Positions 7,948 to 49,142 of a DNA stretch of 64,000 nucleotides are shown one piece after another. Source of the stretch: an uncultured bacterium (GTDB lineage: Bacteria; Edwardsbacteria; AC1; EtOH8). The stretch's first letter is position 1. Each line of letters opens with the position of its first letter. The DNA is taken from NCBI GenBank assembly GCA_963780225.1, contig CAWAAX010000003.1, positions 24,193 to 88,192 of the forward strand, in the 5' to 3' direction. Below the pieces are notes generated by a model. It worked only from the letters and a program-made list of their open reading frames with translations. It did no database searches and was not told where the DNA came from. Position numbers and translations under genes: made by a program.

Positions 7948-8213
7948 TTATGTTCTTTTCTTTTTGTGCCGCCGCTTCATTTGAAGGCAAGCTTGCTTAG
8001 CTAAGGGCAGGCTCCAAAAAGAACCAAAAGCTACGCCTTTGGCGGGCCACGCTTACGCTAAAGCTCTCAGCGGGCCGCGTTGCGCTTCTCGTTGATGACG
8101 GGCTTGTCTGAACTCGGGCTTTGGCCAAGCCCTCAAACATGCCAGACAAGCTTTTTCCGCCATCAACTGCGATGCTCACTGATCGTTTTAACGCGACTAC
8201 CGGGTTTAGTAAC
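7948..8213 (+). repeat. Dispersed structured repeat, copy 1 (diverged, with an insertion)
   Basis: Aligns by eye with 45334-45556 and with the reverse complement of 21950-22168. Shared blocks include GGGCTTGTCTGAACTCGGGCTTTGGCCAAGCCCTCAAACA and CAACTGCGATGCTCACTGAT. Confidence 0.75.
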
Positions 8214-8246
8214 CATTGATCTAAGGTAACGGGATAATCGTTAAAT

Positions 8247-10086: not shown

Positions 10087-10128
10087 GATGTTTACTCCCT
10101 GAATATTAAAGGTTTAATCTGAACAGAG

Positions 10129-10950
10129 TTAAACTGATCGTTTACTGTAAATGTTCATGTTCCACAAAGCTCCGGAATATTTTTGCGGTTGCCATAATCC
10201 GAAACCATCGATACAAATCGGTTCAAATCCGCATTTTCTTAGGAATACAAGAATGGTATGAGCATTAAAATGGTAAACATGAGCTATTAACGAAGCAGTT
10301 GGGCCTTTGGTTTCGGTGTCCGGTAACCTTAAGATCAATAAACCATTTTTATCAAGTAATGAAAATGCTTTGCGGATATATGCGGCAGGGTTTAAGGTGT
10401 GCTCAATTACGCTATACATGGCAATTATATCGTATTTGTCTGATTCGCTAATGTCTAAAAAGTTGCCTTTTAAGGCGGTGATCCCTGAATTGTGAAGTGC
10501 TTGTACACATTTCTCGTCGGTTTCTATTCCAAAAGCCTCCCAACCTCGTTGCTTGGCCTCTTTGAGTGTATATCCAGCACCGAAGCCTACTTCAAAAAAT
10601 CTGCCTTTTGATGCAAAGCGTTCTATGTCATTTAGTCGTAATACTGCAGTATCCTGCAAAGCTTTAGGATCATGAAATACATCAAGAGTAGCCTGCTCGT
10701 AAAGCGGATCGTTAGCGTTGGTATTGTGATATATTTCCGAATAAATATAATCGTAAAATGATTGAGATGGCTGGGGGTCCAGCCACATCATACCATCATG
10801 TAAGCAGCGCACAGTATGAAATAATTGACCATTAAGCACAAAACTATTGAGGGGTGTAATGTCCCTACGCTGGCATAAAAGACAGCCAACCTCACGTGTG
10901 TCTATGTGCAAAATATCGGGAATATTTATGTTGAAAATATTTGGAACCAT
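10129..10950 (-). CDS. Class I SAM-dependent methyltransferase with an N-terminal Cys cluster
   Basis: Motif I FFEVGFGAGY; N-terminal CLLC...VRCLHDG; clearly lower GC than the flanking genes. Confidence 0.7.
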   Translation of the reverse strand: MVPNIFNINIPDILHIDTREVGCLLCQRRDITPLNSFVLNGQLFHTVRCLHDGMMWLDPQPSQSFYDYIYSEIYHNTNANDPLYEQATLDVFHDPKALQDTAVLRLNDIERFASKGRFFEVGFGAGYTLKEAKQRGWEAFGIETDEKCVQALHNSGITALKGNFLDISESDKYDIIAMYSVIEHTLNPAAYIRKAFSLLDKNGLLILRLPDTETKGPTASLIAHVYHFNAHTILVFLRKCGFEPICIDGFGLWQPQKYSGALWNMNIYSKRSV

Positions 10951-11020
10951 AAAGGCATTTCAAATAAACGCAAAATATCGGGTGTGATAGGAACGGCAGT
11001 ATCACAATAAAGTGTTAAAA

Positions 11021-19464: not shown

Positions 19465-20364
19465 ATGAAGATCATGAAAAAAATATTTTATTCAACCGTG
19501 CTACTGCTTTTCGCCACCCAGCTCTGGGCTTTGACCCCGGGCGACAAGTCAGCGGTATTTCTGACCCTGCCCCAGGGAGCCCGGCCCACTGCCATGGGCG
19601 AGGCCTACACCGCCATCTCCGGGGATATCTACGGGAGTTTCTGGAACCCGGCCGGGGTGGCCGATCTGGGGCCGATGGCCTTCACCGCCAGCATGGCGCC
19701 CACTTATCTGGACATGTATTACGGCTACCTGGCCGGGGGAATGAGCTTCGGCCAGAACGCGGTGGCCCTGTCCATCACCCATTTCAATTACGGCGACATG
19801 GTGGGCCTGGACCAGTATGCCCGCAATGAGATCACCTTCAATGGCTCGGATCTGGGAATCGCCGCTACCTATGCCCGGCGCTTCGCCCGGCAGAAGCTGC
19901 ATCTGGGCGCTTCGCTCAAGATCGCCAGCCAGTCCATAGAGGAAGAATCGGCCACCTCGGTAATGATGGATCTGGGCGCCATCAAAAAATTTAACCGGCT
20001 GACTCTGGGAGCGGCGGTGAGAAATTTGGGGCCGGGCCCCAAATTCGTGGACGAGTCGGCCGGCCTGCCCATCACCTTCAGTTTGGGATGCAGCTATTAC
20101 TTTTACAATATGCCCCTGCTGCCGGTGTTCTCGTTGGACATGCCTTTGGACGACGTGCCCTCGGCCGGACTGGGACTGGAATACAGCCTGCCCAAATATC
20201 TGGCCTTAAGGGCCGGGCTTAAGACCGACCGCGACCAGGGCTTCGTCTCCATGCTAAGGTTCGGGCTGGGGATCAATGTCAGCGGCATCTCGGTGGATTA
20301 TGCCATGATCCCGGGGGACGAGATCGGGTCGACCCATATGATCACTCTGGGATATAGAAAATAA
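19465..20364 (+). CDS. PorV/PorQ-family outer-membrane beta-barrel protein
   Basis: Signal peptide plus LPQGARPTAMGEAYTAISGDIYGSFWNPAG, typical of the PorV/PorQ family; about 300 aa. Confidence 0.7.
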   Translation: MKIMKKIFYSTVLLLFATQLWALTPGDKSAVFLTLPQGARPTAMGEAYTAISGDIYGSFWNPAGVADLGPMAFTASMAPTYLDMYYGYLAGGMSFGQNAVALSITHFNYGDMVGLDQYARNEITFNGSDLGIAATYARRFARQKLHLGASLKIASQSIEEESATSVMMDLGAIKKFNRLTLGAAVRNLGPGPKFVDESAGLPITFSLGCSYYFYNMPLLPVFSLDMPLDDVPSAGLGLEYSLPKYLALRAGLKTDRDQGFVSMLRFGLGINVSGISVDYAMIPGDEIGSTHMITLGYRK

Positions 20365-20688
20365 AAAATCAAAAGGCAAAAATCAAATTAGTTGTGTAAT
20401 TACATTGTGAACGCGTTTAGTTGTTTATAGGACCCTCCTTTTCATTAACAGCCGCCTCCGGAATCCTCCTCCGTTTGCTTTCTGGCTTCGTTCAGAATGC
20501 GGCGGACAAGGCACCGGGGCGGCTTTGTTTTTTTTATACTCATCATGGGGTTATTTTGCTTGATTTTGTCCTTCTTTGGTAGTATGCTTAGAGTATATTT
20601 AAAAGCAAGTTTTTCATCTTTGATCTTACTATGTTTTGGGTCGAAAAGAGGCTTAAATATATAGACATATATATGGACAAAATATGTA

Positions 20689-20717
20689 TTGACATCAATA
20701 TAACAATATGATAATAT
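20689..20717 (+). promoter_or_regulatory. Sigma70-like promoter for fic (TTGACA-17-TAATAT)
   Basis: TTGACA at 20689-20694, a 17-nt spacer, TAATAT at 20712-20717. Confidence 0.55.
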
Positions 20718-20729
20718 TATGTTTACAGC

Positions 20730-20771
20730 GGACATATTAAAGGACATGTATGAGGACATATAATTCGACAC
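20730..20771 (+). promoter_or_regulatory. Four 12-nt-phased GGACAT-type iterons overlapping the fic start codon
   Basis: GGACAT at 20730, 20742 and 20754, and CGACAC at 20766, with an exact 12-nt period; related AGACAT / GGACAA / TGACAT words lie at 20663, 20675 and 20690. Confidence 0.6.
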
Positions 20772-21943
20772 ATCCTTGGATAAAATTCAACATAGACCTC
20801 CGCCCAACCCCGCCGCAATTATGGATGTCGCTAGGCGAGGCCTCATCAAAGTGCGAACATATTGCCGGTGTGCCATTGCGCCCCCAAACAGCCAGGGAAA
20901 TGCATCTGATCTACCTGGCCAAGGGCGTGGCCGCCACTACTGCCATAGAAGGCAATTCCCTGTCGGAAGAGCAGGTCCTTCAGCATATGGATGGCACGCT
21001 TAAGCTGCCGCCGTCAAAGGAATATCTGGCCCAGGAAGTGGAAAATATAATTACGGCCTGCAATCAGATAGGCGAAGGTTTGCACAACGGTGGTGTTGAG
21101 CTTACTCCGGAACGAATAAAAGAATTCAACCGGCAGGTGCTGAATAAACTTACGCTGGAGAAGGATGTTGTGCTGGGGGAGATCCGGACGCACTCGGTGG
21201 TGGTGGGTAATGTTTACCGGGGGGCGCCGGCCGAGGATTGCGGGCATCTGCTGGAACGTTTATGTCAGTGGTTAAACAGCGATGACTTTAAACCTGTAGC
21301 AGGCATGGAGACGGTCTATGCCATCATCAAGGCCGTAGTGGCTCATGTTTACCTGGCCTGGATACATCCTTTCGGCGACGGCAACGGACGCACCGCCCGC
21401 CTGGTGGAATTTCAGATACTATTGTCCGCCGGAGTGCCCACCCCGGCGGCCCATCTGCTGAGCAATCACTATAACCAGACCCGCACCGAATACTACCGCC
21501 AGCTTGATTCGGCCAGCAAGACCGGCGGCGAGATAATTCCTTTCTTGTCGTATGCTGCGCAGGGGTTTGTTGACGGTCTGAGGGAACAGCTGGAACGCAT
21601 CCGAAATCAGCAATGGGATGTTACCTGGGAAAATTACGTCCATGACATGTTTCACAGCAGGATCAGCCGTTCCGATATCCGGCAGAGAAACCTGGTCCTG
21701 GATATTTCCCATTCCCAAAAGCCAGTGCCGCCCCCAAAGATCGCCGAACTTTCGCCCCGGCTGGCCAGGGACTACGCCGGCAAAACATATAAAACGATCC
21801 AACGCGATCTGAATGCCATGGAAAAAATGAACCTGATAGAACGGACAGCAGACGGGGTTAGGGCCAAGAAAGAAACCATACTGGCTTTCCTGCCTTGGAA
21901 GAACATCAGTAATGATCATCCAGCCAGCTCGGAAAACTTGTAG
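20750..21943 (+). CDS. Fic-family protein (class II, auto-inhibited AMPylase type)
   Basis: Active-site motif HPFGDGNGRTAR; N-terminal inhibitory motif TTAIEG, which fits (S/T)xxxE(G/N); C-terminal wHTH-like tail. Confidence 0.9.
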   Translation: MRTYNSTHPWIKFNIDLRPTPPQLWMSLGEASSKCEHIAGVPLRPQTAREMHLIYLAKGVAATTAIEGNSLSEEQVLQHMDGTLKLPPSKEYLAQEVENIITACNQIGEGLHNGGVELTPERIKEFNRQVLNKLTLEKDVVLGEIRTHSVVVGNVYRGAPAEDCGHLLERLCQWLNSDDFKPVAGMETVYAIIKAVVAHVYLAWIHPFGDGNGRTARLVEFQILLSAGVPTPAAHLLSNHYNQTRTEYYRQLDSASKTGGEIIPFLSYAAQGFVDGLREQLERIRNQQWDVTWENYVHDMFHSRISRSDIRQRNLVLDISHSQKPVPPPKIAELSPRLARDYAGKTYKTIQRDLNAMEKMNLIERTADGVRAKKETILAFLPWKNISNDHPASSENL

Positions 21944-21949
21944 ACAATA

Positions 21950-22168
21950 GGCACCAACCCCGGTTGTCGCGTTAAAACGATCAGTGAGCATCGCAGTTGA
22001 CGGCGGTTAAAAGCTTGTCTGCATGTTTGAGGGCTTGGCCAAAGCCCGAGTTCAGACAAGCCCGCCGGCGACGAGAAGCGCAGCGCCCGGAGAGTTTTAA
22101 GCGACGAGCTTTTTTCTTTTTGGTTCTTTTTCTTAGTTGGCGGTACAAAAAAGAAAAAGAACACAATT
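21950..22168 (-). repeat. Dispersed structured repeat, copy 2 (inverted orientation)
   Basis: The reverse complement is near-identical by eye to 45334-45556. Confidence 0.8.
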
Positions 22169-22273
22169 GCGTCTATAGTTACGTTTTCACCAAAATCGCT
22201 ATATTCTTTATACTTTTTCCGAGCAAGATAGATAGACATTACACCAGTAATCTTTAGCTAAAAAGGAGCAGCC

Positions 22274-23293
22274 ATGGAACGCATCGTCCAATTGCTGAAG
22301 GACCTGGAGGCCATCCATTCGCCCTCCGGCTATACCGACGAAGTCACAGTCACATCGCCGAGCTATGCCAGAAGAACGGGATAAAGACCAGGCTCACCAA
22401 CAAGGGCGGCACTTTTGTGCGGGAACCACAATGCCCCCAAGCTGGTGGTATCGGGCCATGTGGATACCCTGGGCCTGATGGTCAGCGGCATCAACAGCGA
22501 CGGCAGCCTGGCCTTCACCAAGATCGGCTCGCCGGTGCTGGCCTCGTTCGAGGGCGAGTACGTCACCATCATCACCTCCGAGGACAAGAAGTTCCGGGGC
22601 ACCCTGCTGTTGAACAACCCGGCGGCCCACGTTAATAAGGAGGCGGACAAGGCAGAGCGCAAAGCCGACAGCATGCACATCCGGCTGGACGCCGAGACCA
22701 GCAAGAAAGAGGAGACCGAGAAGCTGGGGATCCGCACCGGGGATTTCATCTGCTTTGACCCCCGCTTTGAGTACACCGATTCCGGGTTCATCAAGTGCCG
22801 GTTCCTGGACGACAAGGCCGGCTCGGCCGCCATGCTGGATGCCCTGCTGGCGCTGGGTTCCAAGGAGCTGGAAAAACTGCCGGTGACCTTCTTCTTCTCC
22901 AATTACGAGGAGGTGGGCCACGGGGCCTCGGCCGGGGTGCCCCCAAGCGCAACCGAGATGCTGGTGGTGGACATGGGAGTGGTGGGCGAGAAGGTGGACG
23001 GGGTGGAGACGGCGGTCTCCATCTGCGTCAAGGATTCCAACGGGCCATACGACTATGCCATCAGGCAGAAGCTCTCCCGGCTGGCCACGGCCCACGGCAT
23101 TGCCCACCGGCTGGACGTGTTTCCCCTGTACGGCTCGGACGGGAGCGCGGCCCTGGCGGCCGGGCACGATATAAGGGTGGGGCTGATAGGCCCCGGGGTG
23201 AGCGCCAGCCACGGGATGGAGCGGACCCATTTGAAGGGGTTGAACGCGGCCCGGGACCTGCTGATGGCGTATATCAATGATACGTTGAAATAG
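22274..23293 (+). pseudogene. M42-family peptidase with two compensating frameshifts
   Basis: The N-terminus MERIVQLLKDLEAIHSPSGYTDEV reads in the frame of 22274 and stops at 22382-22384. HIAELCQKNGIKTRLTNKGGTFV reads in the adjacent frame. NHNAPKLVVSGHVDTLGLMV onward is back in the first frame and runs to 23293. Confidence 0.8.
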
Positions 23294-23312
23294 AACAGCG
23301 CAAACTGAAATG

Positions 23313-23340
23313 AAAAAGCCGGGCATTGCCCGGCTTTTTA
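23313..23340 (+). terminator. Intrinsic terminator after the M42 peptidase gene
   Basis: AGCCGGG-CATTG-CCCGGCT hairpin flanked by AAAAA and TTTTT. Confidence 0.6.
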
Positions 23341-23342
23341 TC

Positions 23343-23371
23343 TTGATTTTGTCAGGCTTACGGTGTAGAAT
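23343..23371 (+). promoter_or_regulatory. Sigma70-like promoter of the tcmP-gp37 cassette (TTGATT-17-TAGAAT)
   Basis: TTGATT at 23343-23348, a 17-nt spacer, TAGAAT at 23366-23371; the AAGGAG RBS and an ATG at 23397 follow. Confidence 0.55.
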
Positions 23372-23396
23372 AAACTCGATATTAAGGAGATATATT

Positions 23397-24230
23397 ATGG
23401 CTAAAAGTATACATGATGAAGTTGGGTACTGGTCTGAAATAAAGCTGGACATTATTAAAGACTATGCTCAAGAATACACAAAAATATTAAGCAAGCAAAA
23501 ATTGAGCTACATCTATATTGATGCATTCGCTGGTTCCGGTATTCATGTATCTAAAAAAACGGGCGAATATATTCTTGGTAGCCCAATGAATGCACTCCTC
23601 GTCACCCCACCTTTTAATGAATATTATTTAATTGACCTCGATCAAGATAAAACTGATAATTTGAAAGAATTAGCCCAAGGCAGGAAAGATGTATTTATTC
23701 ACGAAGGCGATTGTAATAAAATTCTTAAAGGCAGCGTATTCCCTAAGGCAAAATGGGAAAATTATCGCAGGGCATTGTGTATTCTTGACCCCTACGGACT
23801 TCATTTGAATTGGGATATAATATATACTGCAGGGCAGATGAAAAGTATTGAAATATTCCTTAATTTCCCGGTAGCAGATATGAATCGCAATGTCCTGTGG
23901 GGTGATCCCACTAAAGTAGAAAGCAGCCAATTAGAGAGAATGAATGCTTATTGGGGTGATGATAGCTGGCGCAAAGTTGCATATTCCACAGAAGGAAATT
24001 TTTTAGGTTACGAAGAGAAGCAAGGAAATGAAGCAATTGCCAAAGCTTTCCAAAAACGGCTAAAAACCATCGCTGGTTTCAAGTACGTACCAAACCCCAT
24101 TCCAATGCGTAATAAAAACAATGCAATTGTATACTATCTATTTTTTGCATCTCAAAATCCAACGGCTTCAAAAATAGTTAATCATATCTTTACAAAATAT
24201 AAAGATAGAAAAGGCAGCAATGGCACTTAG
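23397..24230 (+). CDS. tcmP: Three-Cys-motif partner protein TcmP
   Basis: The N-terminus GYWSEIKLDIIKDYAQEYTKIL and the IDAFAGSG block match my recollection of the TcmP family. It lies directly upstream of, and overlaps, a Gp37/Gp68 gene. I moved the start to the ATG with a strong RBS rather than the track start at 23310. Confidence 0.7.
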   Translation: MAKSIHDEVGYWSEIKLDIIKDYAQEYTKILSKQKLSYIYIDAFAGSGIHVSKKTGEYILGSPMNALLVTPPFNEYYLIDLDQDKTDNLKELAQGRKDVFIHEGDCNKILKGSVFPKAKWENYRRALCILDPYGLHLNWDIIYTAGQMKSIEIFLNFPVADMNRNVLWGDPTKVESSQLERMNAYWGDDSWRKVAYSTEGNFLGYEEKQGNEAIAKAFQKRLKTIAGFKYVPNPIPMRNKNNAIVYYLFFASQNPTASKIVNHIFTKYKDRKGSNGT

Positions 24231-24948
24231 TAAAATCGAATGGACCGAATCAACCTGGAACCCTGTGACCGGGTGCACCAAGGTCAGCCCAGGGTGTCTG
24301 AACTGCTACGCCGAAAGAATGACCAGGCGCTTGCAGGCCATGGGCCAGCCCAATTATAAGCACGGGTTTAACGTGGCGGTTCACAGCCGTTCCCTGCAGC
24401 AGCCATTGGTATTAAAAAAGCCGCAGATGATATTCGTGAATTCCATGAGCGACCTTTTCCACGATAAGGTGCCGTCGGAGTTCATTCTCCGGGTTTTCGA
24501 AGTAATGGACAAGGCATTTTGGCACACCTACCAGATACTAACCAAACGGGCGGACCGTCTTATTGAAATGGATGCTTTCATGGACTGGCCGGACAATGTA
24601 TGGATGGGGGTCAGCGTAGAAACAAGCGAATATAAAAACCGCATAGAGATGCTAAAACGGTGTGGCGCCAAAGTAAAGTTTTTATCATGTGAGCCTTTGC
24701 TTGGTAGTCTTGGCAAGCTGGATCTCAACGGAATAGATTGGGTTATTGCCGGGGGGGAATCCGGACCAGGGGCCAGGCCGGTTGACCCAGAATGGGTGGA
24801 AGAGATACGGGATCAATGCCTTAAAGCGGAAGTGCCATTTTTCTTTAAGCAATGGGGCGGGTTCAACAAGAAAAAGGCGGGCCGTTTGCTGGATGGGAAG
24901 GTATGGGACCAAATGCCAAAGCAGTATCAGTCCGTGAATTATGCTTAA
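24220..24948 (+). CDS. Phage Gp37/Gp68-family protein (DUF5131)
   Basis: IEWTESTWNPVTGCTKVSPGCLNCYAERM, FVNSMSDLFH, QILTKR, FLSCEPLLG, WVIAGGESGPGARP and FFFKQWGG are hallmark blocks; it overlaps tcmP by 11 nt. Confidence 0.85.
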   Translation: MALSKIEWTESTWNPVTGCTKVSPGCLNCYAERMTRRLQAMGQPNYKHGFNVAVHSRSLQQPLVLKKPQMIFVNSMSDLFHDKVPSEFILRVFEVMDKAFWHTYQILTKRADRLIEMDAFMDWPDNVWMGVSVETSEYKNRIEMLKRCGAKVKFLSCEPLLGSLGKLDLNGIDWVIAGGESGPGARPVDPEWVEEIRDQCLKAEVPFFFKQWGGFNKKKAGRLLDGKVWDQMPKQYQSVNYA

Positions 24949-25002
24949 ATCAATCTAACTTTTAACCGCTTTCAAAACATTGACCTAAAATTAAAAAGCC
25001 GG

Positions 25003-25160
25003 GCATCGCCCACCGGCTGGAGGAATTTTCCCTGTACGGCAAGGGTGAAGCTGATCGGGCTGGGGTCTCAGCCAGCCACGGGATGGAGCGGACCCATTTG
25101 AAGGGGCTGAACGCGAGCAGGGACCTGCTGATGGCCTATGTGAAAGAGACGTTGAACTAA
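25003..25160 (+). pseudogene. Relic duplicate of the M42 peptidase 3' end
   Basis: The segment translates in frame as HRLEEFSLYG...GVSASHGMERTHLKGLNASRDLLMAYVKETLN*. This parallels 23107-23293 (HRLDVFPLYG...GVSASHGMERTHLKGLNAARDLLMAYINDTLK*) with an internal deletion. Confidence 0.75.
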
Positions 25161-25294
25161 CCACACTTTCCGCCGATTAACGTCAGGCTATACTGCCGGC
25201 GGGCATTTACAACAGGCTACCGGACATCAGACTTTACTGATTTTGGACAATCTTTTAACTTTAGAGGAATAAAACAACTCAGGGAGGTTGGTAC

Positions 25295-27103
25295 ATGAAA
25301 AACGTTATAATCCTAGCCGGTCTAATTCTTTGTCTGGCCCAGCCGGGTCCCGCCCAAAACGCAGCTAATCAGGATTCGCTGGCGCTGGAGAAAACATTCG
25401 ATCAGTTCTTCCGTGACTACATTGCCCTTAGGCCCGAGATAGGTTCCTATCTGGGCCTCTCCCGGCAGATGGGCTATGCTTTTGACCGGTCCCGGCTGGA
25501 TGACATTTCCCCGGATGGCGACAGAGCTTACCTCAACCTGCTGAAGGGGTATATAAAAAAACTTGGCCAGGCATACAAAGGCCGGATTACTGCGCAGCAG
25601 AAAATAGATGTTGAAAATTTAAAATGGCAGCTTACGGTGGAAGTCCGGCTGTATGAAAATATCGACAACAGATACGTGGTAAATCACCTTAACGGCGTGC
25701 AGAACGCGACCATCAATACCCTTAAAGACTACCACCCGATAAACGAGCTTCGGGATGCCGAAGACTATCTGGCCCGGATGGAAAGGATCCCGGCCAAAAT
25801 TGATCAGGCAATGTCGAACCTGACCCGGCAGGAAAAGAAAGGTATCTCTGCCCCGGCCTTCATCGCCGAACGGGTGATAGCGGGGATCGATGAATTCACA
25901 GGTCCTGCCCCCAATCAAAATCTGTTATATAACGATTTCAGGGACAAGATATCAACGGTAAAAAGTATTGACCCGGCAACGGCGGCCGACCTGTGCCGGA
26001 AAGCGGAACAACTGATCGGCGACAGCATCTACCCGGCCTACCGAAAGTTCAGAACCAGGGTGGAAGAATCAAGACAAAAAGCCGATAACCGGGCTGGCGT
26101 GTGGAAACTGCCCAAGGGAAGTACTTATTACAACCATTGCCTGACATACGAAACGTCGGTGAAACTGTCCCCGGAACAGGTTCACCAACTGGGGCTGAAC
26201 GAGGTCAAGGTCCTGCAGCAAAGGTGCCTGGTCCTGCTAGATTCCCTGGGGATCAGGGGGGATAAAAGTTTCGGCAAGCTGATGGAAGAATACTGGGATT
26301 TTCTGGGCAAGCCGGAGATAAAAGAAAAGATCAGCTATCCCCAGGACAGCTCCAGCCGGGCGGTGGTGCTCAAGGATTACCAGGCTCTGATCGACAACGC
26401 CTTTTTGTTGCTGCCCCAGGCATTTTCCTACATTCCCAAAACGAAAGTGATGGCGTTACCAGTGCCACCACATAAGGAAAAAGGCGGATTGACAACATAC
26501 AGCCCCGCCCCGTTGGATGGCACGAGAAAGGCATCGTTCGATGTGAATCTTTCCTGGTTGCCGGACAAACCGGATATGGCTCCATTGACTTTTCACGAAA
26601 CCGTTCCGGGCCACCATTACCAGATTGCGCTGCAACAGGAGCTATGCCAGAACCGGATGTACCGTAACATCTTCTGGATATCCGGTTTCGGTGAAGGATG
26701 GGCCATGTATGCCCAGGATTTGGCCTGCGAGCTGGGCTGGCTGCCGGACATTCATTCCCGGATAGCAGAAATAAATTCCCAGCTGTTCCGGGCGGTGCGG
26801 ATAGTTTTAGATACAGGGATCCATCTGAAGAAATGGGACAAACAGCAAGCCCTGACCTATATGAAGGAGAACCTGGGCTGGGCCTCCAAGAATGAGGTCG
26901 ACCGCTATGTGGTCTGGCCGGGCCAGGCCTGCTCGTATACCTTGGGTAAGATAAAGATCAAGGAATTGCGGGAAAGGACCAGGGCAAAGCTGGGGAATGA
27001 ATTTGACCTGAAGGAATTTCACAGGATAGTGCTGGAGAACGGCAGCCTGCCGTTGGATGTTCTGGAGAAAAAGGTTGATGCCTATATCAAGGCCAGCATT
27101 TAG
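25295..27103 (+). CDS. DUF885-family protein (secreted, metallopeptidase-like)
   Basis: Signal peptide; FHETVPGHHYQ motif and the EGWAMY block typical of DUF885. Confidence 0.85.
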   Translation: MKNVIILAGLILCLAQPGPAQNAANQDSLALEKTFDQFFRDYIALRPEIGSYLGLSRQMGYAFDRSRLDDISPDGDRAYLNLLKGYIKKLGQAYKGRITAQQKIDVENLKWQLTVEVRLYENIDNRYVVNHLNGVQNATINTLKDYHPINELRDAEDYLARMERIPAKIDQAMSNLTRQEKKGISAPAFIAERVIAGIDEFTGPAPNQNLLYNDFRDKISTVKSIDPATAADLCRKAEQLIGDSIYPAYRKFRTRVEESRQKADNRAGVWKLPKGSTYYNHCLTYETSVKLSPEQVHQLGLNEVKVLQQRCLVLLDSLGIRGDKSFGKLMEEYWDFLGKPEIKEKISYPQDSSSRAVVLKDYQALIDNAFLLLPQAFSYIPKTKVMALPVPPHKEKGGLTTYSPAPLDGTRKASFDVNLSWLPDKPDMAPLTFHETVPGHHYQIALQQELCQNRMYRNIFWISGFGEGWAMYAQDLACELGWLPDIHSRIAEINSQLFRAVRIVLDTGIHLKKWDKQQALTYMKENLGWASKNEVDRYVVWPGQACSYTLGKIKIKELRERTRAKLGNEFDLKEFHRIVLENGSLPLDVLEKKVDAYIKASI

Positions 27104-27243: not shown

Positions 27244-27272
27244 TTGTAATTAGGGCTTAAATTATATACAAT
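27244..27272 (+). promoter_or_regulatory. Sigma70-like promoter (TTGTAA-17-TACAAT) for the SET-domain gene
   Basis: TTGTAA at 27244-27249, a 17-nt spacer, TACAAT at 27267-27272; this argues against the track start at 27272. Confidence 0.55.
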
Positions 27273-27313
27273 TGCAGCAACATTCAAACCACTACCAATC
27301 GAAAGCAGTACTG

Positions 27314-27862
27314 ATGTTAGCTCCGCTATTCGCAGTGAAAAAAATAAAGAACAAAGGCCAGGGTCTTTTCGCCAGGGAATTCATTCCCCGGGGAACCATA
27401 GTGTTCTTTGAATGCCATAATTGCAAAGCGACGTCCAAAGCCACTTTCCAAAAACTTTCCCCCGCCCAAAAGGAGAAGCTGCTATTCCATGCCTACACCG
27501 TCAAGGACGGCTCGGTGGTGATGCCCTGTGGCGACTCCAAGTACATGAACCACTGCTGTGACTCCAACATCCTGGATACCGGGAAGGGATACGACATCGT
27601 GGTCCGGGACATCAAAAAAGGCGAGGAGGCCACCTACGACTACCGGGTCTTTTATGACCAGGACTGGGGCTTCCAGTGCGCCTGCGGCTCCAAGAACTGT
27701 TGCGGCACCTTCCGCTGCCAGCACCCTCTGCCCAAAGGGGTGCGGGCCTGGTGGGACAAGAAGATCAAGCCGGCCCAAAAACTGATCGGCAAAGTCCCCC
27801 AGCCGCTAAAAAAAGATCTGGTCAAGCATGAGCCAAAACACACGAGGCTATTTCATTCCTAA
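27314..27862 (+). CDS. SET-domain protein (putative protein lysine methyltransferase)
   Basis: KYMNHCCDSN (NHSCxPN-like), GEEATYDY (ELxxDY-like) and the post-SET motif CACGSKNC. Confidence 0.8.
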   Translation: MLAPLFAVKKIKNKGQGLFAREFIPRGTIVFFECHNCKATSKATFQKLSPAQKEKLLFHAYTVKDGSVVMPCGDSKYMNHCCDSNILDTGKGYDIVVRDIKKGEEATYDYRVFYDQDWGFQCACGSKNCCGTFRCQHPLPKGVRAWWDKKIKPAQKLIGKVPQPLKKDLVKHEPKHTRLFHS

Positions 27863-35035: not shown

Positions 35036-36217
35036 TCAGATCAACCCCAGCTCTTTTCCGGCGGCCCGGAATTCTTCCAGCACCCGGTCCAGCTGGGCAT
35101 CGGTGTGGGCGGCCGAAAAACTGGTGCGGATCATCTCCCTGCCCTCGGGGACGGCCGGGGACATCACCGGGTTGGCGAAGATGCCGTGGTCCATCAGATG
35201 CTTCCAGAAGGCGAAGGCCTTTTCCCGCGAGCCGATCATCAGCGGGATGATGGGGGTGCAGGCCGATCCGGTGTCGTAACCCAGGTCCTTGAAGCCCTTC
35301 AGCATCTTGTCGGTGTTGTGCCAGAGTTTCTTGAGCAGTTCCGGCTCGTCCTGCAGCACGTCCACCGCCGCCGAGACGGCCGCGGTCAGGGCCGGGGGCA
35401 GGGCGGCCGAGAAGATCATGCTCCGGGCAAAATGCTTGACGTAGTCGATCACCTCAAAATCCCCGGCCACCACACCGCCGATGGCGGCGAAGCTCTTGGA
35501 GAAAGTGCCCATGATCAGGTCGGTCTCCTTCTCCAGGCCAAAATGCTCGGCGGTGCCCCGGCCGTGGGCTCCCAGAACCCCCAGGGCGTGGGCGTCGTCC
35601 ACCAGCAGCCGGGCTCCGTGCTTTTGGCAGACCTTGATGATGCCGGGCAGGTCGGCGATGTCGCCCTCCATGCTGTATACTCCGTCCACGATCACCATCT
35701 TTCCCTTGCCGTGGTCCAGGCCCTGCAGCACCCGGTCCAGGCTCTGGGCGTCGTTGTGCTGGAAGCGGCGCATCGGTGAATAGGAAAGGCGGCAGCCGTC
35801 CAGGATGGAGGCGTGGTCGTATTTGTCGGTGATCAGGATGTCGTCTTTTGTTCCCAGGCAGGAGATGACCCCCAGGTTGGTCTGCATCCCGGTGGAGAAG
35901 ACCAGGGCCGCCTGCTTGTTCAAAAATTTGGCCAGTTTGGCCTCCAGCTGGTTGTGCATGTCCAAGGTTCCGGTTAAAAAGCGGGAGCCGGTGCAGCCGG
36001 TGCCGAATTTCTCGATGGCCTTGATGGCCGCCTCCTTGACCCGGGGATGGGTGGTCAGGCCCAGGTAGTTGTTGGAACCGATCATGATCATCTTCTTGCC
36101 GTCGATGATCACCTCCGGCTCCTGGGCCGAGGACAGGGGGTGGAAATAGGGGTAAAGACCGGCATCCCGGGCGTCCCGGGCATCGGTGAAGTCAACGCAT
36201 TTTTTGAAGATATCCAT
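35036..36217 (-). CDS. Alpha-oxoamine synthase family PLP enzyme (Kbl / BioF / serine palmitoyltransferase-like)
   Basis: 393 aa with the PLP-lysine block GTFSKSFAAIGG and DDAHALG; the subfamily cannot be resolved by eye. Confidence 0.8.
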   Translation of the reverse strand: MDIFKKCVDFTDARDARDAGLYPYFHPLSSAQEPEVIIDGKKMIMIGSNNYLGLTTHPRVKEAAIKAIEKFGTGCTGSRFLTGTLDMHNQLEAKLAKFLNKQAALVFSTGMQTNLGVISCLGTKDDILITDKYDHASILDGCRLSYSPMRRFQHNDAQSLDRVLQGLDHGKGKMVIVDGVYSMEGDIADLPGIIKVCQKHGARLLVDDAHALGVLGAHGRGTAEHFGLEKETDLIMGTFSKSFAAIGGVVAGDFEVIDYVKHFARSMIFSAALPPALTAAVSAAVDVLQDEPELLKKLWHNTDKMLKGFKDLGYDTGSACTPIIPLMIGSREKAFAFWKHLMDHGIFANPVMSPAVPEGREMIRTSFSAAHTDAQLDRVLEEFRAAGKELGLI

Positions 36218-36358
36218 TAAAAAAACCTTTAAAAAGATTAAACGCTGTTTTTAATTATACAATAATGAGGCATTTTTTACAAGGGAGAAGAAGTAAAAGC
36301 TCATCGTTTTGATGAGCTTTTACTAAATTGTAAGAGAACAAATATTTTAAAATTTATC

Positions 36359-36387
36359 TTGACAAACTGGCCCTTCGGCATTATAAT
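36359..36387 (+). promoter_or_regulatory. Consensus sigma70 promoter (TTGACA-17-TATAAT) with no downstream CDS
   Basis: TTGACA at 36359-36364, a 17-nt spacer, TATAAT at 36382-36387. Confidence 0.65.
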
Positions 36388-36393
36388 TCAAAT

Positions 36394-36460
36394 AATCCGC
36401 TTATGCGGAGGTGGATGGCCTAGTGCTATCGGAATTGGGACTCGCAAGAGTCCCTTTTCT
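36394..36460 (+). ncRNA. Candidate small RNA of about 65 nt (unknown family)
   Basis: The predicted TSS lies about 7 nt after the -10 box. It contains the CCGC-TTAT-GCGG hairpin, then the GGGACTC-GCAA-GAGTCCC hairpin (36437-36454) followed by TTTTCT. It is convergent with the DUF3800 gene and ends 3 nt before that gene's stop. Confidence 0.4.
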
Positions 36461-36462
36461 AT

Positions 36463-37230
36463 TTATATAAATTTCTTTCCATAAATCACGCCAGTTCTCC
36501 TATAATACTTTAACTGCAATATTTCCACAGTCTTTTGAGCAAAAGCAGAAAGATTATTTGGAATATCTTGTTCGGCAAGTATTTCATTCCGGCTTTCATG
36601 AGCCAATAAATCAGCGATCTGCAAACCGCTGATATTATTGAGTTTTGGTTTTACCTTAAGTTCCCTGCTTGTTAAAAACGTCTTAAATCTATCCGGATCA
36701 ACATAGGAAGTTCCATTTTCTAAAAGCCTTCTATAAGACGCTTTTAACCGCATATCAGCTTTTCCGCCCCTTGATTCAGCCATTACATCGCCGTTGCTTC
36801 CGCTTTGTTCCAAAAAGAATACAAACCTTTCCAGCAAAACAGCCAGACAATAATGGTATGTATCATATCTCCAGGTGCTATAAGTTTCTTTGTGCCTCTT
36901 TTTGTCGATACAAACGGTAATTACTGTATATTGCCAGCTATTTAATAAATTGAGCAGTTCTTCGTCAAAGGCTTGCCTTTTCTCCGGGTCTTTCAAACAT
37001 TCAAAAGGGGAAAGTCTCCTTACCATTTCTTTACGATGGAATATAATAGGGTCATCAGAGTGATAACTAAAGTATTTCCGTTTTAGACTTTCCATCTGCG
37101 GGTGAATGATAGAATCGGAGTATCTAAGCTCGGTAATTATACCGGTTAAACTAAGATATCTATGATTGGGATTGTCCGAACTGTCCAAATCGGGATTACC
37201 CACTTCATCGATATAAATGCGGTATTTCAT
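36463..37230 (-). CDS. DUF3800-domain protein
   Basis: The N-terminus YRIYIDEVGN is typical of DUF3800; 255 aa, in a strongly AT-rich island. Confidence 0.75.
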   Translation of the reverse strand: MKYRIYIDEVGNPDLDSSDNPNHRYLSLTGIITELRYSDSIIHPQMESLKRKYFSYHSDDPIIFHRKEMVRRLSPFECLKDPEKRQAFDEELLNLLNSWQYTVITVCIDKKRHKETYSTWRYDTYHYCLAVLLERFVFFLEQSGSNGDVMAESRGGKADMRLKASYRRLLENGTSYVDPDRFKTFLTSRELKVKPKLNNISGLQIADLLAHESRNEILAEQDIPNNLSAFAQKTVEILQLKYYRRTGVIYGKKFI

Positions 37231-45333: not shown

Positions 45334-45556
45334 CAATTATGTTCTTTTTCTTTTTTGTACCGCCAACTAAGAAAAAGAACCAAAAAGAAAAAAGCTCGTC
45401 GCAAAATACTATCCGGGCGCTGCGCTTCTCGCTGACGGCGGGCTTGTCTGAACTCGGGCTTTTGCCAAGCCCTCAAACAGGCGCAGACAAGCTTTTAACC
45501 GCCGTCAACTGCGATGCTCACTGATAGTATTTAACGCGACAACCGGGGTTGGCACC
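45334..45556 (+). repeat. Dispersed structured repeat, copy 3 (reference copy)
   Basis: A 12-bp hairpin pairs 45341-45352 with 45369-45380. A long composite stem pairs 45434-45450 with 45484-45506 and encloses the GGGCTT/AAGCCC hairpin. No conserved ORF is shared among the copies. Confidence 0.8.
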
Positions 45557-45620
45557 TTTTGTTCTCCATGCTTCCTGAGTTGATTGGATGATTATTTAAC
45601 AAAATTTAAAGAAGGATATC

Positions 45621-49017: not shown

Positions 49018-49102
49018 ACAATTAATCCTACTACGCTCTGCCTATGCCAAGGCTTTGGCAGACAAGCATAGCTTCGTCGGACAAGCAATTAACAATTAGC
49101 AG

Positions 49103-49142
49103 GAACCCCGGAGCCTGGAATATCAGGTCCGGGGTTCTTTAG
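49103..49142 (+). terminator. Intrinsic terminator
   Basis: GAACCCCGGA (49103-49112) pairs with TCCGGGGTTC (49128-49137), followed by TTT. Confidence 0.7.

What the first reader, a model, noticed from the sequence alone, without database searches (positions are those of the whole stretch)
23397..24948. TcmP + Gp37/Gp68 (DUF5131) two-gene module: a functionally uncharacterised three-Cys / Rossmann-like pair, candidate nucleic-acid modification or defence system
The two genes overlap by 11 nt and share their own TTGATT-17-TAGAAT promoter and a strong RBS, so they form a self-contained operon.

- The Gp37/Gp68 protein has the N-terminal cysteine triad CTKVSPGCLNC (C-x5-C-x2-C). The triad is reminiscent of Fe-S/radical-SAM-like clusters.
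- TcmP carries IDAFAGSG, which resembles SAM-methyltransferase motif I.

The pairing of these two families is documented in family databases: the TcmP family is defined by this neighbourhood. To my knowledge no biochemical function or phenotype has been established.

Here the pair rides on a small mobile-looking AT-rich island, in the same ~5-kb stretch as a Fic gene and a dispersed repeat. This is typical defence-island context.
Basis: partly seen in the sequence, partly recalled or inferred. Interest (0 to 1): 0.85.

Follow-up and report, generated by a model that had tools for sequence, protein, structure and literature searches.

The report
TcmP–DUF5131 radical-SAM gene pair
A real, horizontally acquired two-gene operon pairs a methyltransferase-like protein with a radical-SAM enzyme; it is already catalogued as an untested candidate phage-defence system (PADLOC PDC-M41), so this copy is a new member of a known, still unexplained kind.

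Summary
TcmP (23397-24230) and DUF5131 (24220-24948) overlap by 11 nt behind their own terminator, promoter and RBS. Both curated models hit strongly.

The pair is not new. TIGR04474 is defined by this neighbourhood. PADLOC lists the pair as PDC-M41, one of 145 untested candidates. RadicalSAM.org already places DUF5131 in the radical-SAM superfamily. I found no functional study.

What I add:
- **TcmP fold.** TcmP models as an RlmJ-like class-I methyltransferase. Motif I, a GSP motif and the Asp-Pro of motif IV are conserved across the family.
- **DUF5131 fold.** It weakly resembles spore photoproduct lyase. Its cysteine motif is Cx6Cx2C, not Cx5Cx2C.
- **Linkage.** The genes are adjacent in 77 of 78 evaluable loci found through TcmP.
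- **Partner swapping.** DUF5131 is conserved, while TcmP falls into at least 12 types. In this lineage exactly the TcmP ORF has been replaced.
- **Acquisition scar.** The unit is AT-rich and sits beside a diverged duplicate of the neighbouring M42 gene's 3' end.
- **Context.** Neighbours elsewhere are mostly housekeeping genes, so the defence-island reading is weak.

Best reading (inferred): a mobile nucleic-acid base-modification module used in genetic conflict, with TcmP as the variable partner.

The parts
23096..23292 (+). 3' end ('copy A') of the M42 peptidase gene, which reads through to the stop at 23291-23293. This is the left copy of the duplicated gene end that brackets the inserted module.
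   Evidence: the repeat finder families D1, D3 and D7; alignment A5; Pfam Peptidase_M42 6.9e-69 for 22415-23293.
23313..23339 (.). Perfect palindromic terminator-like hairpin AAAAAGCCGGGCATTGCCCGGCTTTTT, at the left boundary of the module. It terminates M42 and insulates the module's promoter.
   Evidence: Terminator scan: 12-pair stem on both strands. It is unique in the window. An equivalent hairpin precedes the promoter in L001 and L167.
23343..23371 (+). Sigma-70-like promoter, TTGATT-17-TAGAAT.
   Evidence: Promoter scan, 9 of 12 matches. The -35 box is invariant and the -10 box nearly so in L001 and L167, although their TcmP genes differ.
23385..23390 (+). Ribosome-binding site AAGGAG, 6 nt upstream of the TcmP ATG.
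   Evidence: Read directly from the sequence.
23397..24230 (+). tcmP, 277 aa: an RlmJ-like class-I SAM-methyltransferase-fold protein and the variable, swappable partner. 36% GC.
   Evidence: TIGR04474 6.1e-62. PADLOC PDC-M41A 8.8e-81. AF2 model pLDDT 88. Foldseek RlmJ E 2e-7, TM 0.58. hhalign to RlmJ 80.6%. The ORF is replaced by other TcmP types in L001, L003, L166 and L168.
24220..24948 (+). DUF5131 / Gp37-Gp68 gene, 242 aa: putative radical-SAM enzyme with C19-x6-C26-x2-C29 and G178-G-E-S-G-P. It is the conserved partner and is translationally coupled to tcmP by the 11-nt overlap.
   Evidence: PF07505 3.4e-103. PDC-M41B 3.6e-120. phrog_2045. Invariant columns in alignment A2. Top fold hits are spore photoproduct lyase, SuiB and a nitrogenase FeMo-co maturation entry (7bi7), all weak. 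84-93% nt identity in relatives whose TcmP differs.
24955..24983 (+). Remnant (first arm and loop) of the module's own downstream terminator. Nucleotide similarity to relatives L001, L003, L165 and L166 ends at 24983.
   Evidence: BLASTN end-points. An intact hairpin 'aaccgcttt...aaagcggtt' is present in L001 and L003.
24985..25011 (+). Truncated second copy of the left-hand hairpin region (CTAAAATTAAAAAGCCGGGCATCGCCC). It forms the right junction and is fused at the 10-nt core GGCATCGCCC to the M42 remnant.
   Evidence: the repeat finder D10. L168 carries the full hairpin at this position. Alignment A5.
25002..25159 (+). Diverged, non-functional duplicate ('copy B') of the M42 3' end. It is 86-87% identical to 23096-23292, has an internal gap of about 39 nt, and ends in its own TAA. 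I read it as a scar of the acquisition event.
   Evidence: the repeat finder D1, D3 and D7; whole-window D3; alignment A5; 81.6% identity to the L001 M42 end.

Best explanation
This is a horizontally mobile, self-contained operon of about 1.7 kb (terminator, promoter, tcmP, DUF5131 gene).

**Proposed mechanism**
- The two products act together on a nucleic-acid base.
- TcmP is a class-I SAM-dependent methyltransferase-fold protein of the RlmJ/DUF519 lineage. I propose it binds SAM, selects and flips the target nucleotide, and probably methylates it. It is the variable, exchangeable partner that sets specificity.
- DUF5131 is a small radical-SAM enzyme related to spore photoproduct lyase. I propose it uses a [4Fe-4S] cluster held by Cx6Cx2C to generate a 5'-deoxyadenosyl radical and to perform H-abstraction chemistry on the same nucleotide. 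It is the conserved catalytic partner.
- The resulting covalent mark would serve in genetic conflict: marking self or interfering with invading DNA or RNA. That fits the pair's status as PADLOC candidate PDC-M41.

**Shown**
- Gene structure and family membership.
- Fold resemblance of both proteins.
- Family-wide conservation of the SAM and catalytic-loop motifs.
- Near-obligate adjacency of the two genes.
- Horizontal spread, swapping of TcmP types, and the insertion scar.

**Inferred**
- The substrate, the chemistry, any physical complex, and any defence phenotype.
For: **Membership**
- PF07505 at 344.8 bits. TIGR04474 at 209.9 bits. PDC-M41A at 8.8e-81 and PDC-M41B at 3.6e-120.

**TcmP fold and motifs**
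- AF2 model: pLDDT 88, pTM 0.86.
- Best PDB folds: RlmJ, the 23S rRNA m6A2030 methyltransferase (E 2e-7, TM 0.58), the DUF519 protein 2oo3, and tRNA methyltransferase Trm1.
- Profile comparison with the RlmJ sequence gives 80.6% probability. It aligns TcmP G61-S-P with RlmJ GSP, and L130-D-P-Y-G with RlmJ IDPPYE.
- Across 30 TcmP sequences less than 50% identical to each other, D42, F44, G46, G48 (motif I), G61-S62-P63 and D131-P132 (motif IV) are kept in at least 70%.

**DUF5131**
- Invariant C19, C26, C29 and GGESGP.
- Listed as radical-SAM Megacluster-5-2, in the same megacluster as spore photoproduct lyase (PMC9477430).
- The top structural hits are spore photoproduct lyase, then SuiB and a nitrogenase FeMo-co maturation entry, 7bi7.

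**Linkage**
- Of 80 loci found through TcmP, 78 are evaluable. 76 have DUF5131 directly downstream, 1 has it convergent and 1 lacks it.
- 61 of 74 ORFs upstream of related DUF5131 genes hit TIGR04474.
- In L024 the two genes are in frame with no stop between them.

**Variable partner**
- Median identity across 128 pairs is 62% for DUF5131 and 27% for TcmP.
- Discordant pairs (DUF5131 vs TcmP identity): window/L001 89% vs 22%, L092/L095 90% vs 17%, L084/L085 86% vs 21%.
- There are 12 TcmP types among 57 pairs whose DUF5131 proteins are at least 54% identical.
- Here the variable block is exactly the TcmP ORF, set between a conserved promoter and a conserved DUF5131 gene.

**Conflict and mobility signals**
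- The distribution is phylum-hopping and includes archaea.
- TcmP is more AT-rich than the flanks in 99% of 126 loci, and DUF5131 in 85%.
- The pair is embedded in or beside a Type III restriction-modification (R-M) system in L006, L014 and L041.
- In Gordonia phages Bosnia and BaxterFox it sits between the integrase and the immunity repressor.
- DUF5131 is found on 424 plasmids.
- A SoFic-like gene lies 1.45 kb upstream in the window.
Against: - No experiment exists. No substrate, product or phenotype is known for any member.
- The DUF5131 model is only moderate (pLDDT 76). Its matches to spore photoproduct lyase are weak (E 1.7e-3, TM about 0.4).
- The cysteine motif is not the canonical Cx3Cx2C.
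- The TcmP catalytic loop is DPYG, one proline short of DPPY. The Tyr is not family-wide, and one type (L001) reads D-I-F at that position. TcmP may therefore bind without methylating.
- No sequence-level PDB hit for either protein.
- Most neighbours in related loci are housekeeping genes, so defence-island support is modest.
Physical interaction is therefore untested.
Confidence: 0.45

Rival explanations
1. Sensor-effector anti-phage system without self-marking. DUF5131 is a radical-SAM effector that, during infection, converts a nucleotide or damages nucleic acid, in the manner of viperin-type or Ophion-type radical-SAM defences. TcmP is the fast-evolving sensor or regulator that recognises phage cues.
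For: - A variable partner paired with a conserved partner is the usual sensor-effector pattern.
- PADLOC lists the pair as a candidate.
- In Gordonia prophages TcmP lies directly downstream of the immunity repressor.
- Radical-SAM enzymes do act in validated defences such as Ophion (bioRxiv 10.1101/2025.09.30.679545).
Against: - TcmP keeps the full SAM-binding motif and the catalytic Asp-Pro family-wide. That points to an enzyme rather than a pure sensor.
- DUF5131 has no resemblance to viperin-like enzymes in the fold search.
- Solitary DUF5131 genes are common in phages, which is odd for a host suicide effector.
Confidence: 0.2
2. A restriction-modification-like system. TcmP methylates self DNA at a type-specific motif. 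DUF5131 'restricts' unmarked DNA by radical-mediated damage, taking its target from TcmP as Res does from Mod in Type III systems.
For: - The low-identity, motif-only conservation of TcmP types resembles DNA methyltransferases of differing specificity.
- TcmP is swapped against a conserved partner, like Mod or HsdS against Res or HsdR.
- The pair is embedded in Type III R-M loci in L006, L014 and L041.
Against: - The orphan pattern is the reverse of R-M systems. DUF5131 often occurs without TcmP: about 13 of 74 related loci and most phage copies. TcmP almost never occurs alone: 1 of 78.
- In L167 TcmP is split into two ORFs while DUF5131 is intact. DUF5131 is therefore not an unchecked toxin.
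- The best TcmP structural relatives are RNA methyltransferases, not DNA methyltransferases.
Confidence: 0.1
3. An accessory rRNA or tRNA modification pair with no role in conflict. An RlmJ-like enzyme and a radical-SAM enzyme decorate a stable RNA, in the way RlmJ and RlmN/Cfr act on 23S rRNA. The pair spreads horizontally because it confers, for example, antibiotic or stress tolerance.
For: - The closest TcmP folds are rRNA and tRNA methyltransferases: RlmJ and Trm1.
- Most neighbours are housekeeping genes.
- Some Mycobacterium prophage copies of DUF5131 are annotated 'RNA methyltransferase'. These are annotations only.
Against: - Distribution across phyla is extremely patchy, with foreign-like composition.
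- At least 12 interchangeable TcmP types are hard to reconcile with a single conserved RNA target.
- The pair occurs on plasmids, in prophage immunity regions and inside R-M loci.
Confidence: 0.12
4. A DNA-repair module. DUF5131 is a lyase-type radical-SAM enzyme like spore photoproduct lyase that reverses a base lesion or adduct. TcmP is a lesion-binding accessory.
For: - Spore photoproduct lyase is the top structural match and is in the same RadicalSAM.org megacluster.
- Solitary DUF5131 genes sit among phage early, replication and DNA-methylase genes.
Against: - The structural match is weak.
- A repair function does not explain hypervariable, swappable TcmP types.
- It also does not explain the placement next to immunity repressors and R-M genes.
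Confidence: 0.06

Closest known systems
PADLOC candidate systems PDC-M41 (A = TcmP, B = DUF5131) and PDC-M30
   Same: Both window proteins match the PDC-M41 models over their full length: A at 8.8e-81 and B at 3.6e-120. They are adjacent and co-directional. PDC-M30B matches DUF5131 equally well. PDC-M30A models are longer TcmP types.
   Different: Nothing structural differs. PDC systems are untested predictions made by 'guilt-by-embedding' in BREX, DISARM and Type I R-M loci. This copy is not embedded in such a system. It sits between an M42 peptidase gene and a DUF885 gene.
[quoted passage not shown]
   Same: Scores are above both curated cut-offs. The defining neighbourhood is present. The three cysteines are invariant.
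   Different: Phage namesakes such as phiE125 gp37, Zirinka gp64 and Typha gp76 are longer (about 300-330 aa), 33-45% identical, and solitary. They lack TcmP within 3 kb. The window protein belongs to the compact, TcmP-linked cellular clade.
RlmJ (E. coli 23S rRNA A2030 N6-methyltransferase; DUF519 family, PDB 4blu/6qe0, 2oo3)
   Same: Best structural match to TcmP (TM 0.58, E 2e-7). Profile alignment pairs the GSP motifs and the catalytic loops. Motif I is D/T-x-F/H-A-G-x-G in both.
   Different: The TcmP loop is DPYG rather than DPPY. There is no sequence-level hit. TcmP is mobile, hypervariable and tied to a radical-SAM partner, whereas RlmJ is a solitary housekeeping enzyme.
Spore photoproduct lyase (radical-SAM DNA repair enzyme, PDB 4fhc/4rh0)
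   Same: Top fold match to the DUF5131 model and in the same RadicalSAM.org megacluster. It is a radical-SAM enzyme that acts on a flipped-out DNA lesion.
   Different: The match is weak (E 1.7e-3, TM about 0.4). The lyase has Cx3Cx2C (established knowledge) and is 340 aa. DUF5131 has Cx6Cx2C and is 242 aa. No lyase partner resembles TcmP.
Type III / Type I restriction-modification (variable Mod/HsdS, conserved Res/HsdR)
   Same: By analogy only: a variable methyltransferase-fold partner is exchanged against a conserved partner. The pair is physically embedded in Type III loci in L006, L014 and L041.
   Different: There is no nuclease or helicase. The orphan statistics are the reverse of R-M systems.
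NCBIfam TIGR04471 'radical SAM mobile pair protein A'
   Same: Weak similarity of DUF5131 over residues 14-211 (5.4e-27). It is another mobile two-gene radical-SAM set.
   Different: The score of 94.7 bits is far below the cut-off of 355, so DUF5131 is not a member.

Membership tests
Pfam PF07505 (DUF5131 / phage Gp37-Gp68) | Full-length HMM match above the gathering score. | tested here: met
   344.8 bits against 28.9; residues 4-233 on profile positions 2-243 of 243.
Pfam PF07505 (DUF5131 / phage Gp37-Gp68) | Three invariant N-terminal cysteines. | tested here: met
   C19, C26 and C29 are invariant in 30 homologues. The spacing is Cx6Cx2C.
NCBIfam TIGR04474 (TcmP) | HMM score above the curated cut-off. 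| tested here: met
   209.9 bits against 53; residues 11-268 on profile positions 1-262 of 263.
NCBIfam TIGR04474 (TcmP) | Encoded next to a PF07505 gene. | tested here: met
   11-nt overlap with the DUF5131 gene. The same adjacency holds in 77 of 78 evaluable related loci.
PADLOC PDC-M41 candidate defence system | Adjacent genes matching the PDC-M41A and PDC-M41B models. | tested here: met
   8.8e-81 and 3.6e-120, both full length. PADLOC's own system-calling thresholds were not run.
PADLOC PDC-M41 candidate defence system | Protection against phage or plasmid. | not testable with these tools
   PDC systems are explicitly untested. My full-text searches of the held library found no phenotype.
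Radical-SAM superfamily | Canonical Cx3Cx2C cluster motif. | tested here: not met
   The motif is Cx6Cx2C. Variant spacings are known in accepted radical-SAM enzymes (established knowledge), and RadicalSAM.org includes DUF5131.
Radical-SAM superfamily | Glycine-rich 'GGE' SAM-binding motif and a partial TIM-barrel fold. | tested here: inconclusive
   G178-G-E-S-G-P is invariant. The model has alternating beta/alpha elements. The best matches are spore photoproduct lyase, SuiB and 7bi7, but with E of 1.7e-3 or weaker, TM about 0.4 and pLDDT 76.
Radical-SAM superfamily | [4Fe-4S] binding and reductive SAM cleavage. | not testable with these tools
   Requires anaerobic reconstitution and a 5'-deoxyadenosine assay.
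Class-I SAM methyltransferase, RlmJ/DUF519-like | Rossmann-like methyltransferase fold with motif I (D/E-x-F-x-G-x-G). | tested here: met
   Foldseek probability 1.00, TM 0.58 to RlmJ. D42-A-F-A-G-S-G48; D42, F44, G46 and G48 are conserved across TcmP types.
Class-I SAM methyltransferase, RlmJ/DUF519-like | Catalytic motif IV, (D/N)PP(Y/F). | tested here: inconclusive
   TcmP has D131-P-Y-G, aligned to RlmJ D-P-P-Y with a one-residue gap. D and P are family-wide, but the aromatic residue is not. L001's type reads D-I-F.
NCBIfam TIGR04471 (radical SAM mobile pair protein A) | HMM score above the curated cut-off. | tested here: not met
   94.7 bits against 355.
Restriction-modification-like system | The protective methyltransferase can stand alone, whereas the harmful partner rarely does. 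| tested here: not met
   The reverse holds. TcmP alone occurs in 1 of 78 loci. DUF5131 lacks TcmP in about 13 of 74 loci and in most phage copies. In L167 TcmP is broken and DUF5131 is intact.
Defence-island resident | Neighbourhood enriched in known defence genes. | tested here: inconclusive
   In the window, a SoFic-like gene lies 1.45 kb upstream. In 56 related loci, a minority of the 108 immediate neighbours carry R-M domains (ResIII 4, N6_N4_Mtase 3, N6_Mtase 2, MmeI_Mtase 2). The rest, and the second neighbours, are housekeeping genes. No genome-wide background was computed.

The most novel reading that the evidence does not exclude
TcmP is an exchangeable specificity subunit that directs one conserved radical-SAM enzyme to write (or erase) a covalent mark on DNA or RNA. 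That would be a new class of epigenetic or immune system whose chemistry is radical-based rather than nuclease-based. It would have at least a dozen naturally shuffled specificities, and cassette replacement of the tcmP ORF would be the route to new targets.
Probability: 0.2. Interest if true: 0.85.

Novelty: new member of a known kind. Interest (0 to 1): 0.45.

Why it matters
The TcmP-DUF5131 pair is widespread. One TcmP subtype profile alone finds 4,371 clusters at 50% identity. DUF5131 occurs on 424 plasmids and in 181 phage records. It spans bacteria and archaea.

Neither protein has a known substrate. If the pair modifies nucleic acid, it would add radical-SAM chemistry to the repertoire of epigenetic or immune marking.

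This analysis gives three concrete handles for experiments:
- TcmP is an RlmJ-like enzyme with a conserved SAM pocket.
- DUF5131 is the constant partner.
- Natural TcmP swaps, such as this window against L001 and L168, provide ready-made specificity-exchange experiments.

This particular copy is ordinary for its family.

Tried and rejected
**Searches that found nothing useful**
- Sequence searches of both proteins and of the TcmP profile against the PDB gave no meaningful hit. Only fold and profile-profile comparison reached RlmJ.
- I looked for the uninserted 'empty site' through the downstream DUF885 protein in species genomes. No relative was found.
- Rfam search of 20000-26000 gave only a sub-threshold chance match on the terminator. 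The window has no tRNA gene.
- Literature searches for DUF5131, PF07505, TcmP, PDC-M41, PDC-M30 and Gp37/Gp68 found only annotation-table mentions, the RadicalSAM.org listing, and PADLOC usage. The radical-SAM defence Ophion is a different three-gene system.

**Ideas rejected**
- That the hairpin bracketing the module is an att-like, element-specific site. An exact-match scan of metagenomes returned at least 120 loci, and none carried TcmP or DUF5131. It is a generic terminator sequence, unique within the window.
- That the pair is a phage or prophage cargo gene set. The window-type TcmP occurs in 1 IMG/VR contig and 5 phage records.
- That the TcmP/DUF5131 chimera is an assembly artefact. L165, from another sample, carries the same combination at 94% nt identity over 23387-24983.
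- That a 552-aa hit is a TcmP-DUF5131 fusion. It is a tandem TcmP duplicate. Only L024 and two fragmentary ORFs suggest fusion.

**Caveat on one statistic**
- The pooled partner-divergence correlation (r = -0.09) is biased by how the two sets were sampled. I replaced it with within-set Mantel tests.
Full report
**1. The observation**

The window encodes two co-directional ORFs at the stated place. A 277-aa protein runs from ATG 23397 to the stop at 24228-24230. A 242-aa protein runs from ATG 24220 to 24948. They overlap by 11 nt.

A longer reading from ATG 23310 runs through a terminator and a promoter and has no counterpart in homologues. 23397 is therefore the true start.

Three signals lie upstream:
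- a perfect 12-pair palindromic terminator-like hairpin at 23313-23339;
- TTGATT-17-TAGAAT at 23343-23371;
- AAGGAG six bases before the ATG.

The -35 box is invariant and the -10 box nearly so in two diverged relatives, L001 and L167. The promoter is thus more than a chance consensus match.

IDAFAGSG and CTKVSPGCLNC are both present. The cysteine spacing is Cx6Cx2C, not Cx5Cx2C.

GC content is 36% for tcmP and 50% for the DUF5131 gene. The adjacent M42 peptidase gene is 63% and the window 54%.

**2. Family membership and what is already known**

- The second protein matches PF07505 (DUF5131) at 344.8 bits, against a cut-off of 28.9, and phrog_2045.
[quoted passage not shown] It has no Pfam family.
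- PADLOC-DB already holds the pair as candidate system PDC-M41: A at 8.8e-81 and B at 3.6e-120. DUF5131 also matches PDC-M30B.
- PDC systems are 145 untested candidates predicted by 'guilt-by-embedding' inside BREX, DISARM and Type I R-M loci (bioRxiv 10.1101/2024.01.29.577857).
- RadicalSAM.org lists DUF5131 as Megacluster-5-2, in the same megacluster as spore photoproduct lyase (PMC9477430).

Full-text searches found no functional study. TcmP appears only in annotation tables, for example SMa2243, listed with the hna gene (SMa2245) in an S. meliloti expression table.

**3. Structure**

*TcmP.* The AlphaFold2 model is confident (pLDDT 88, pTM 0.86).
- Its best PDB matches are RlmJ, the E. coli 23S rRNA A2030 N6-methyltransferase (E 2e-7, TM 0.58), the DUF519 protein 2oo3, and tRNA methyltransferase Trm1. 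Generic class-I methyltransferases follow.
- Sequence-only searches of the PDB found nothing.
- A profile comparison with the RlmJ sequence, which I verified against 4blu_A, gives 80.6% probability. It aligns TcmP G61-S-P with RlmJ's GSP. It also aligns L130-D-P-Y-G with RlmJ's I-D-P-P-Y-E, the catalytic loop of amino-methyltransferases.
- Across 30 TcmP sequences less than 50% identical to one another, the residues kept in at least 70% are K16, Y23, D42, F44, G46, G48, G61, S62, P63, L78, L89, D131, P132, R164, G187, L222, Y246, L248, F250 and A257.
- Motif I, the GSP motif and the Asp-Pro of motif IV are therefore family-wide. That argues for a working SAM-dependent enzyme rather than a degenerate scaffold. 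The aromatic residue of motif IV is not universal.

*DUF5131.* The model is only moderate (pLDDT 76).
- The best fold hits are spore photoproduct lyase, then the radical-SAM enzyme SuiB and a nitrogenase FeMo-co maturation entry (7bi7). All are weak (E at best 1.7e-3, TM about 0.4).
- C19, C26, C29, C200 and G178-G-E-S-G-P are invariant.

**4. Linkage of the two genes**

- A scan of one genome per species with the TcmP profile gave at least 551 loci. I kept the best 80. They span Nitrospirota, Chloroflexota, Verrucomicrobiota, Acidobacteriota, Desulfobacterota, Planctomycetota, Bacteroidota and others.
- Of these 80, 78 are evaluable. DUF5131 lies directly downstream and co-directional in 76, convergent in 1 (L079), and is absent in 1 (L026). 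The other two loci end at a contig edge.
- In the reverse direction, 61 of 74 ORFs immediately upstream of the DUF5131 genes most similar to this one, including some from Methanoregula, hit TIGR04474.
- In L024 the two genes are in one frame with no stop codon between them.
- Orphan TcmP is thus rare. Orphan DUF5131 is not: about 13 of 74 loci lack TcmP.
- In phages, 181 of 50,697 records carry DUF5131, but only 5 carry a TcmP detectable with this subtype.
- Five phage loci I inspected hold a longer, more divergent, solitary DUF5131 among early, replication or DNA-methylase genes: Typha, Zirinka, prophiGD13-2, PhiCh1 and phiE125.

**5. A conserved partner and a swappable partner**

Across 128 pairs, median pairwise identity is 62% for DUF5131 and 27% for TcmP. 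Within each sampled set the two divergences correlate only weakly:

| Set | Mantel r | p |
|---|---|---|
| Found through TcmP | 0.35 | 0.001 |
| Found through DUF5131 | 0.16 | 0.001 |

Among the 57 pairs found through DUF5131, whose DUF5131 proteins are all at least 54% identical, TcmP falls into 12 types that are less than 35% identical to each other.

Discordant pairs recur:

| Pair of loci | DUF5131 identity | TcmP identity |
|---|---|---|
| window / L001 | 89% | 22% |
| L092 / L095 | 90% | 17% |
| L084 / L085 | 86% | 21% |

In this window's lineage the swap can be read at nucleotide level.
- DUF5131 genes 84-93% identical in DNA occur in L001, L003, L166 and L168. The similarity starts at 24231-24232, the first base after the tcmP stop.
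- The 65-90 nt before the tcmP start (hairpin and promoter) are again conserved in L001 and L167.
- The tcmP ORF itself shows no DNA similarity and only about 26% protein identity.
- The housekeeping M42 gene next door is 76% identical in DNA between the window and L001. The TcmP difference therefore cannot be vertical divergence.
- L165, from another sample, carries the same tcmP-DUF5131 combination at 94% identity, which rules out an assembly chimera.

TcmP is also systematically more AT-rich than its partner. This holds in 95% of pairs, with a median difference of 4.5 points (Wilcoxon p = 8e-22). TcmP is more AT-rich than the flanks in 99% of loci.

**6. How it got here**

The last 197 nt of the M42 gene (23096-23292) recur right after the module, at 25002-25159. 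That copy is 86-87% identical, has an internal gap of about 39 nt, and keeps its own stop codon.

The right junction is a truncated copy of the left-hand hairpin region, CTAAAATTAAAAAGCCGGGCATCGCCC (24985-25011). It is fused to the M42 remnant at a 10-nt core, GGCATYGCCC, that also occurs inside M42 at 23096.

Relative L168 has the complete hairpin at that position.

I read this as a recombination scar. One side was anchored by homology in M42. The other was joined at a microhomology. Alternatively, a circle carrying a replacement gene end integrated there.

No integrase or tRNA gene lies nearby.

M42 adjacency recurs in relatives. The module lies downstream of M42 in L001 and L002, and upstream of M42 in L167.

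Flanking direct repeats longer than any control (control maximum 15 nt) also bracket the pair in four of 119 loci examined:
- L008: 70 nt at 97% identity, apparently from the 3' end of the upstream gene;
- L121: 35 nt;
- L009: 26 nt;
- L004: 16 nt.

In L001 the module lies between 79-nt inverted repeats.

The hairpin itself is a generic terminator sequence. Of at least 120 metagenome loci that hold it, none has the pair.

**7. Context**

In the window the pair sits between a disrupted M42 gene and a DUF885 gene. A Fic gene that matches PADLOC SoFic (2.3e-59) lies 1.45 kb upstream. A dispersed 225-nt repeat lies between the Fic gene and M42.

In 56 related loci, the 108 immediate neighbours are mostly housekeeping proteins: carboxyltransferase, Leu/Phe-tRNA-protein transferase, SAICAR synthase, RecA and IMPDH, among others. 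R-M domains appear in a minority (ResIII 4, N6_N4_Mtase 3, N6_Mtase 2, MmeI_Mtase 2). The 101 second neighbours are essentially housekeeping.

Three loci (L006, L014, L041) have the pair embedded in or beside a Type III R-M system.

In Gordonia phages Bosnia and BaxterFox, TcmP follows the immunity repressor and is convergent with DUF5131, between integrase and repressor. From general knowledge of actinophages, prophage-expressed defence genes commonly sit there.

DUF5131 is on 424 of 72,556 plasmids. pCAR1 carries an integrase-DUF5131-TcmP operon.

The pair is therefore an accessory, mobile unit with some conflict-type associations. It usually occurs as a lone two-gene insert, not in a defence island.

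**8. Interpretation**

The best-supported reading is a two-enzyme, SAM-dependent nucleic-acid base-modification module used in genetic conflict.
- Both partners' nearest structural relatives act on flipped-out nucleotides in RNA or DNA.
- TcmP keeps its cofactor pocket and catalytic Asp-Pro, while everything else diversifies and is exchanged. This is the pattern of a specificity-bearing methyltransferase.
- DUF5131 is the constant catalytic partner.

The orphan statistics, and the broken TcmP beside an intact DUF5131 in L167, argue against an R-M-like arrangement in which DUF5131 would be a toxin held in check by TcmP.

Substrate, chemistry, complex formation and phenotype are all inferred. 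I give this reading about 0.45.

**9. Verdict**

The finding is real and correctly identified, but it is a new member of a catalogued, uncharacterised kind. Its interest lies in the family's unsolved function and in the cassette-like exchange of TcmP types documented here. It does not lie in this particular copy.

Noticed in passing
window 22274-23293: The M42 peptidase gene is disrupted near its 5' end. The frame from ATG 22274 meets TAA at 22382-22384, and the intact ORF restarts only at 22415. Between about 22345 and 22412 the sequence reads as M42-like (HIAELCQKNGIKTRLTNKGG) only in another frame. This suggests two compensating frameshifts, so either a pseudogene or assembly errors.
   Followed up: partly
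window 21945-22169; copies at 8059-8218 and 45334-45561 (inverted): A dispersed repeat of about 225 nt, 87-96% identical between copies, lies in the intergenic space between the Fic gene and the M42 gene. It contains an internal palindrome (22123-22162). It has no Rfam match and is not found in any fetched locus.
   Followed up: partly
window 20750-21943: The Fic-domain protein (397 aa) matches the PADLOC SoFic model at 2.3e-59 over nearly its full length. It is a possible stand-alone defence gene 1.45 kb upstream of the pair.
   Followed up: no
L001 8914-8992 and 10982-11060: In the closest long relative, the whole TcmP-DUF5131 module is bracketed by 79-nt inverted repeats that are 80% complementary. 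Among all fetched loci they were seen only in L001 and L002, at the two module ends. The arrangement resembles a MITE or a composite element.
   Followed up: partly
L008 9877-9946 and 11659-11728; L121 2030-2064 and 4108-4142; L009 9876-9901 and 11584-11609: Direct repeats of 26-70 nt flank the pair in other genomes. In L008 the repeat encodes a C-terminal '...RVYRLYGLTKEEIKIVEG' peptide, so it appears to be a duplicated 3' end of the upstream gene, as in the window. Insertion at gene 3' ends with duplication may be a recurring mode.
   Followed up: partly
L024 10001-11548: TcmP and DUF5131 are in one reading frame with no stop codon between them (...NNYRRNKVQIMASNSKIEWTE...). This is a possible natural fusion. 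Two fragmentary ORFs (P0320, P0322) also join TcmP to a DUF5131 N-terminus.
   Followed up: partly
L163 (Gordonia phage BaxterFox KU963263.1 32212-32934, + strand): A full-length DUF5131 ORF (55% identical to the window protein) lies on the strand opposite to annotated genes 39-41. It appears to be unannotated in the record.
   Followed up: no
L296 (pCAR1 NC_004444.1 50722-53733); L297 (Hymenobacter plasmid): On plasmids the pair sits next to tyrosine recombinases. pCAR1 has a tight integrase-DUF5131-TcmP operon in the reverse gene order, with a 415-aa TcmP. A recombinase link might relate to TcmP exchange.
   Followed up: no
L167 2918-3728: In this relative TcmP is split into two ORFs (90 and 153 aa) while the DUF5131 gene is intact. 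The module lies upstream, not downstream, of the M42 gene.
   Followed up: partly
window 10001-11000, 36001-37000, 49001-50000: Three other 1-kb bins have 40-42% GC against a window mean of 54%. They may be further foreign inserts.
   Followed up: no
window 27272-27862: A 196-aa SET-domain protein (Pfam SET 7.9e-10) is encoded about 2.3 kb downstream of the pair. This is an uncommon domain in bacteria.
   Followed up: no
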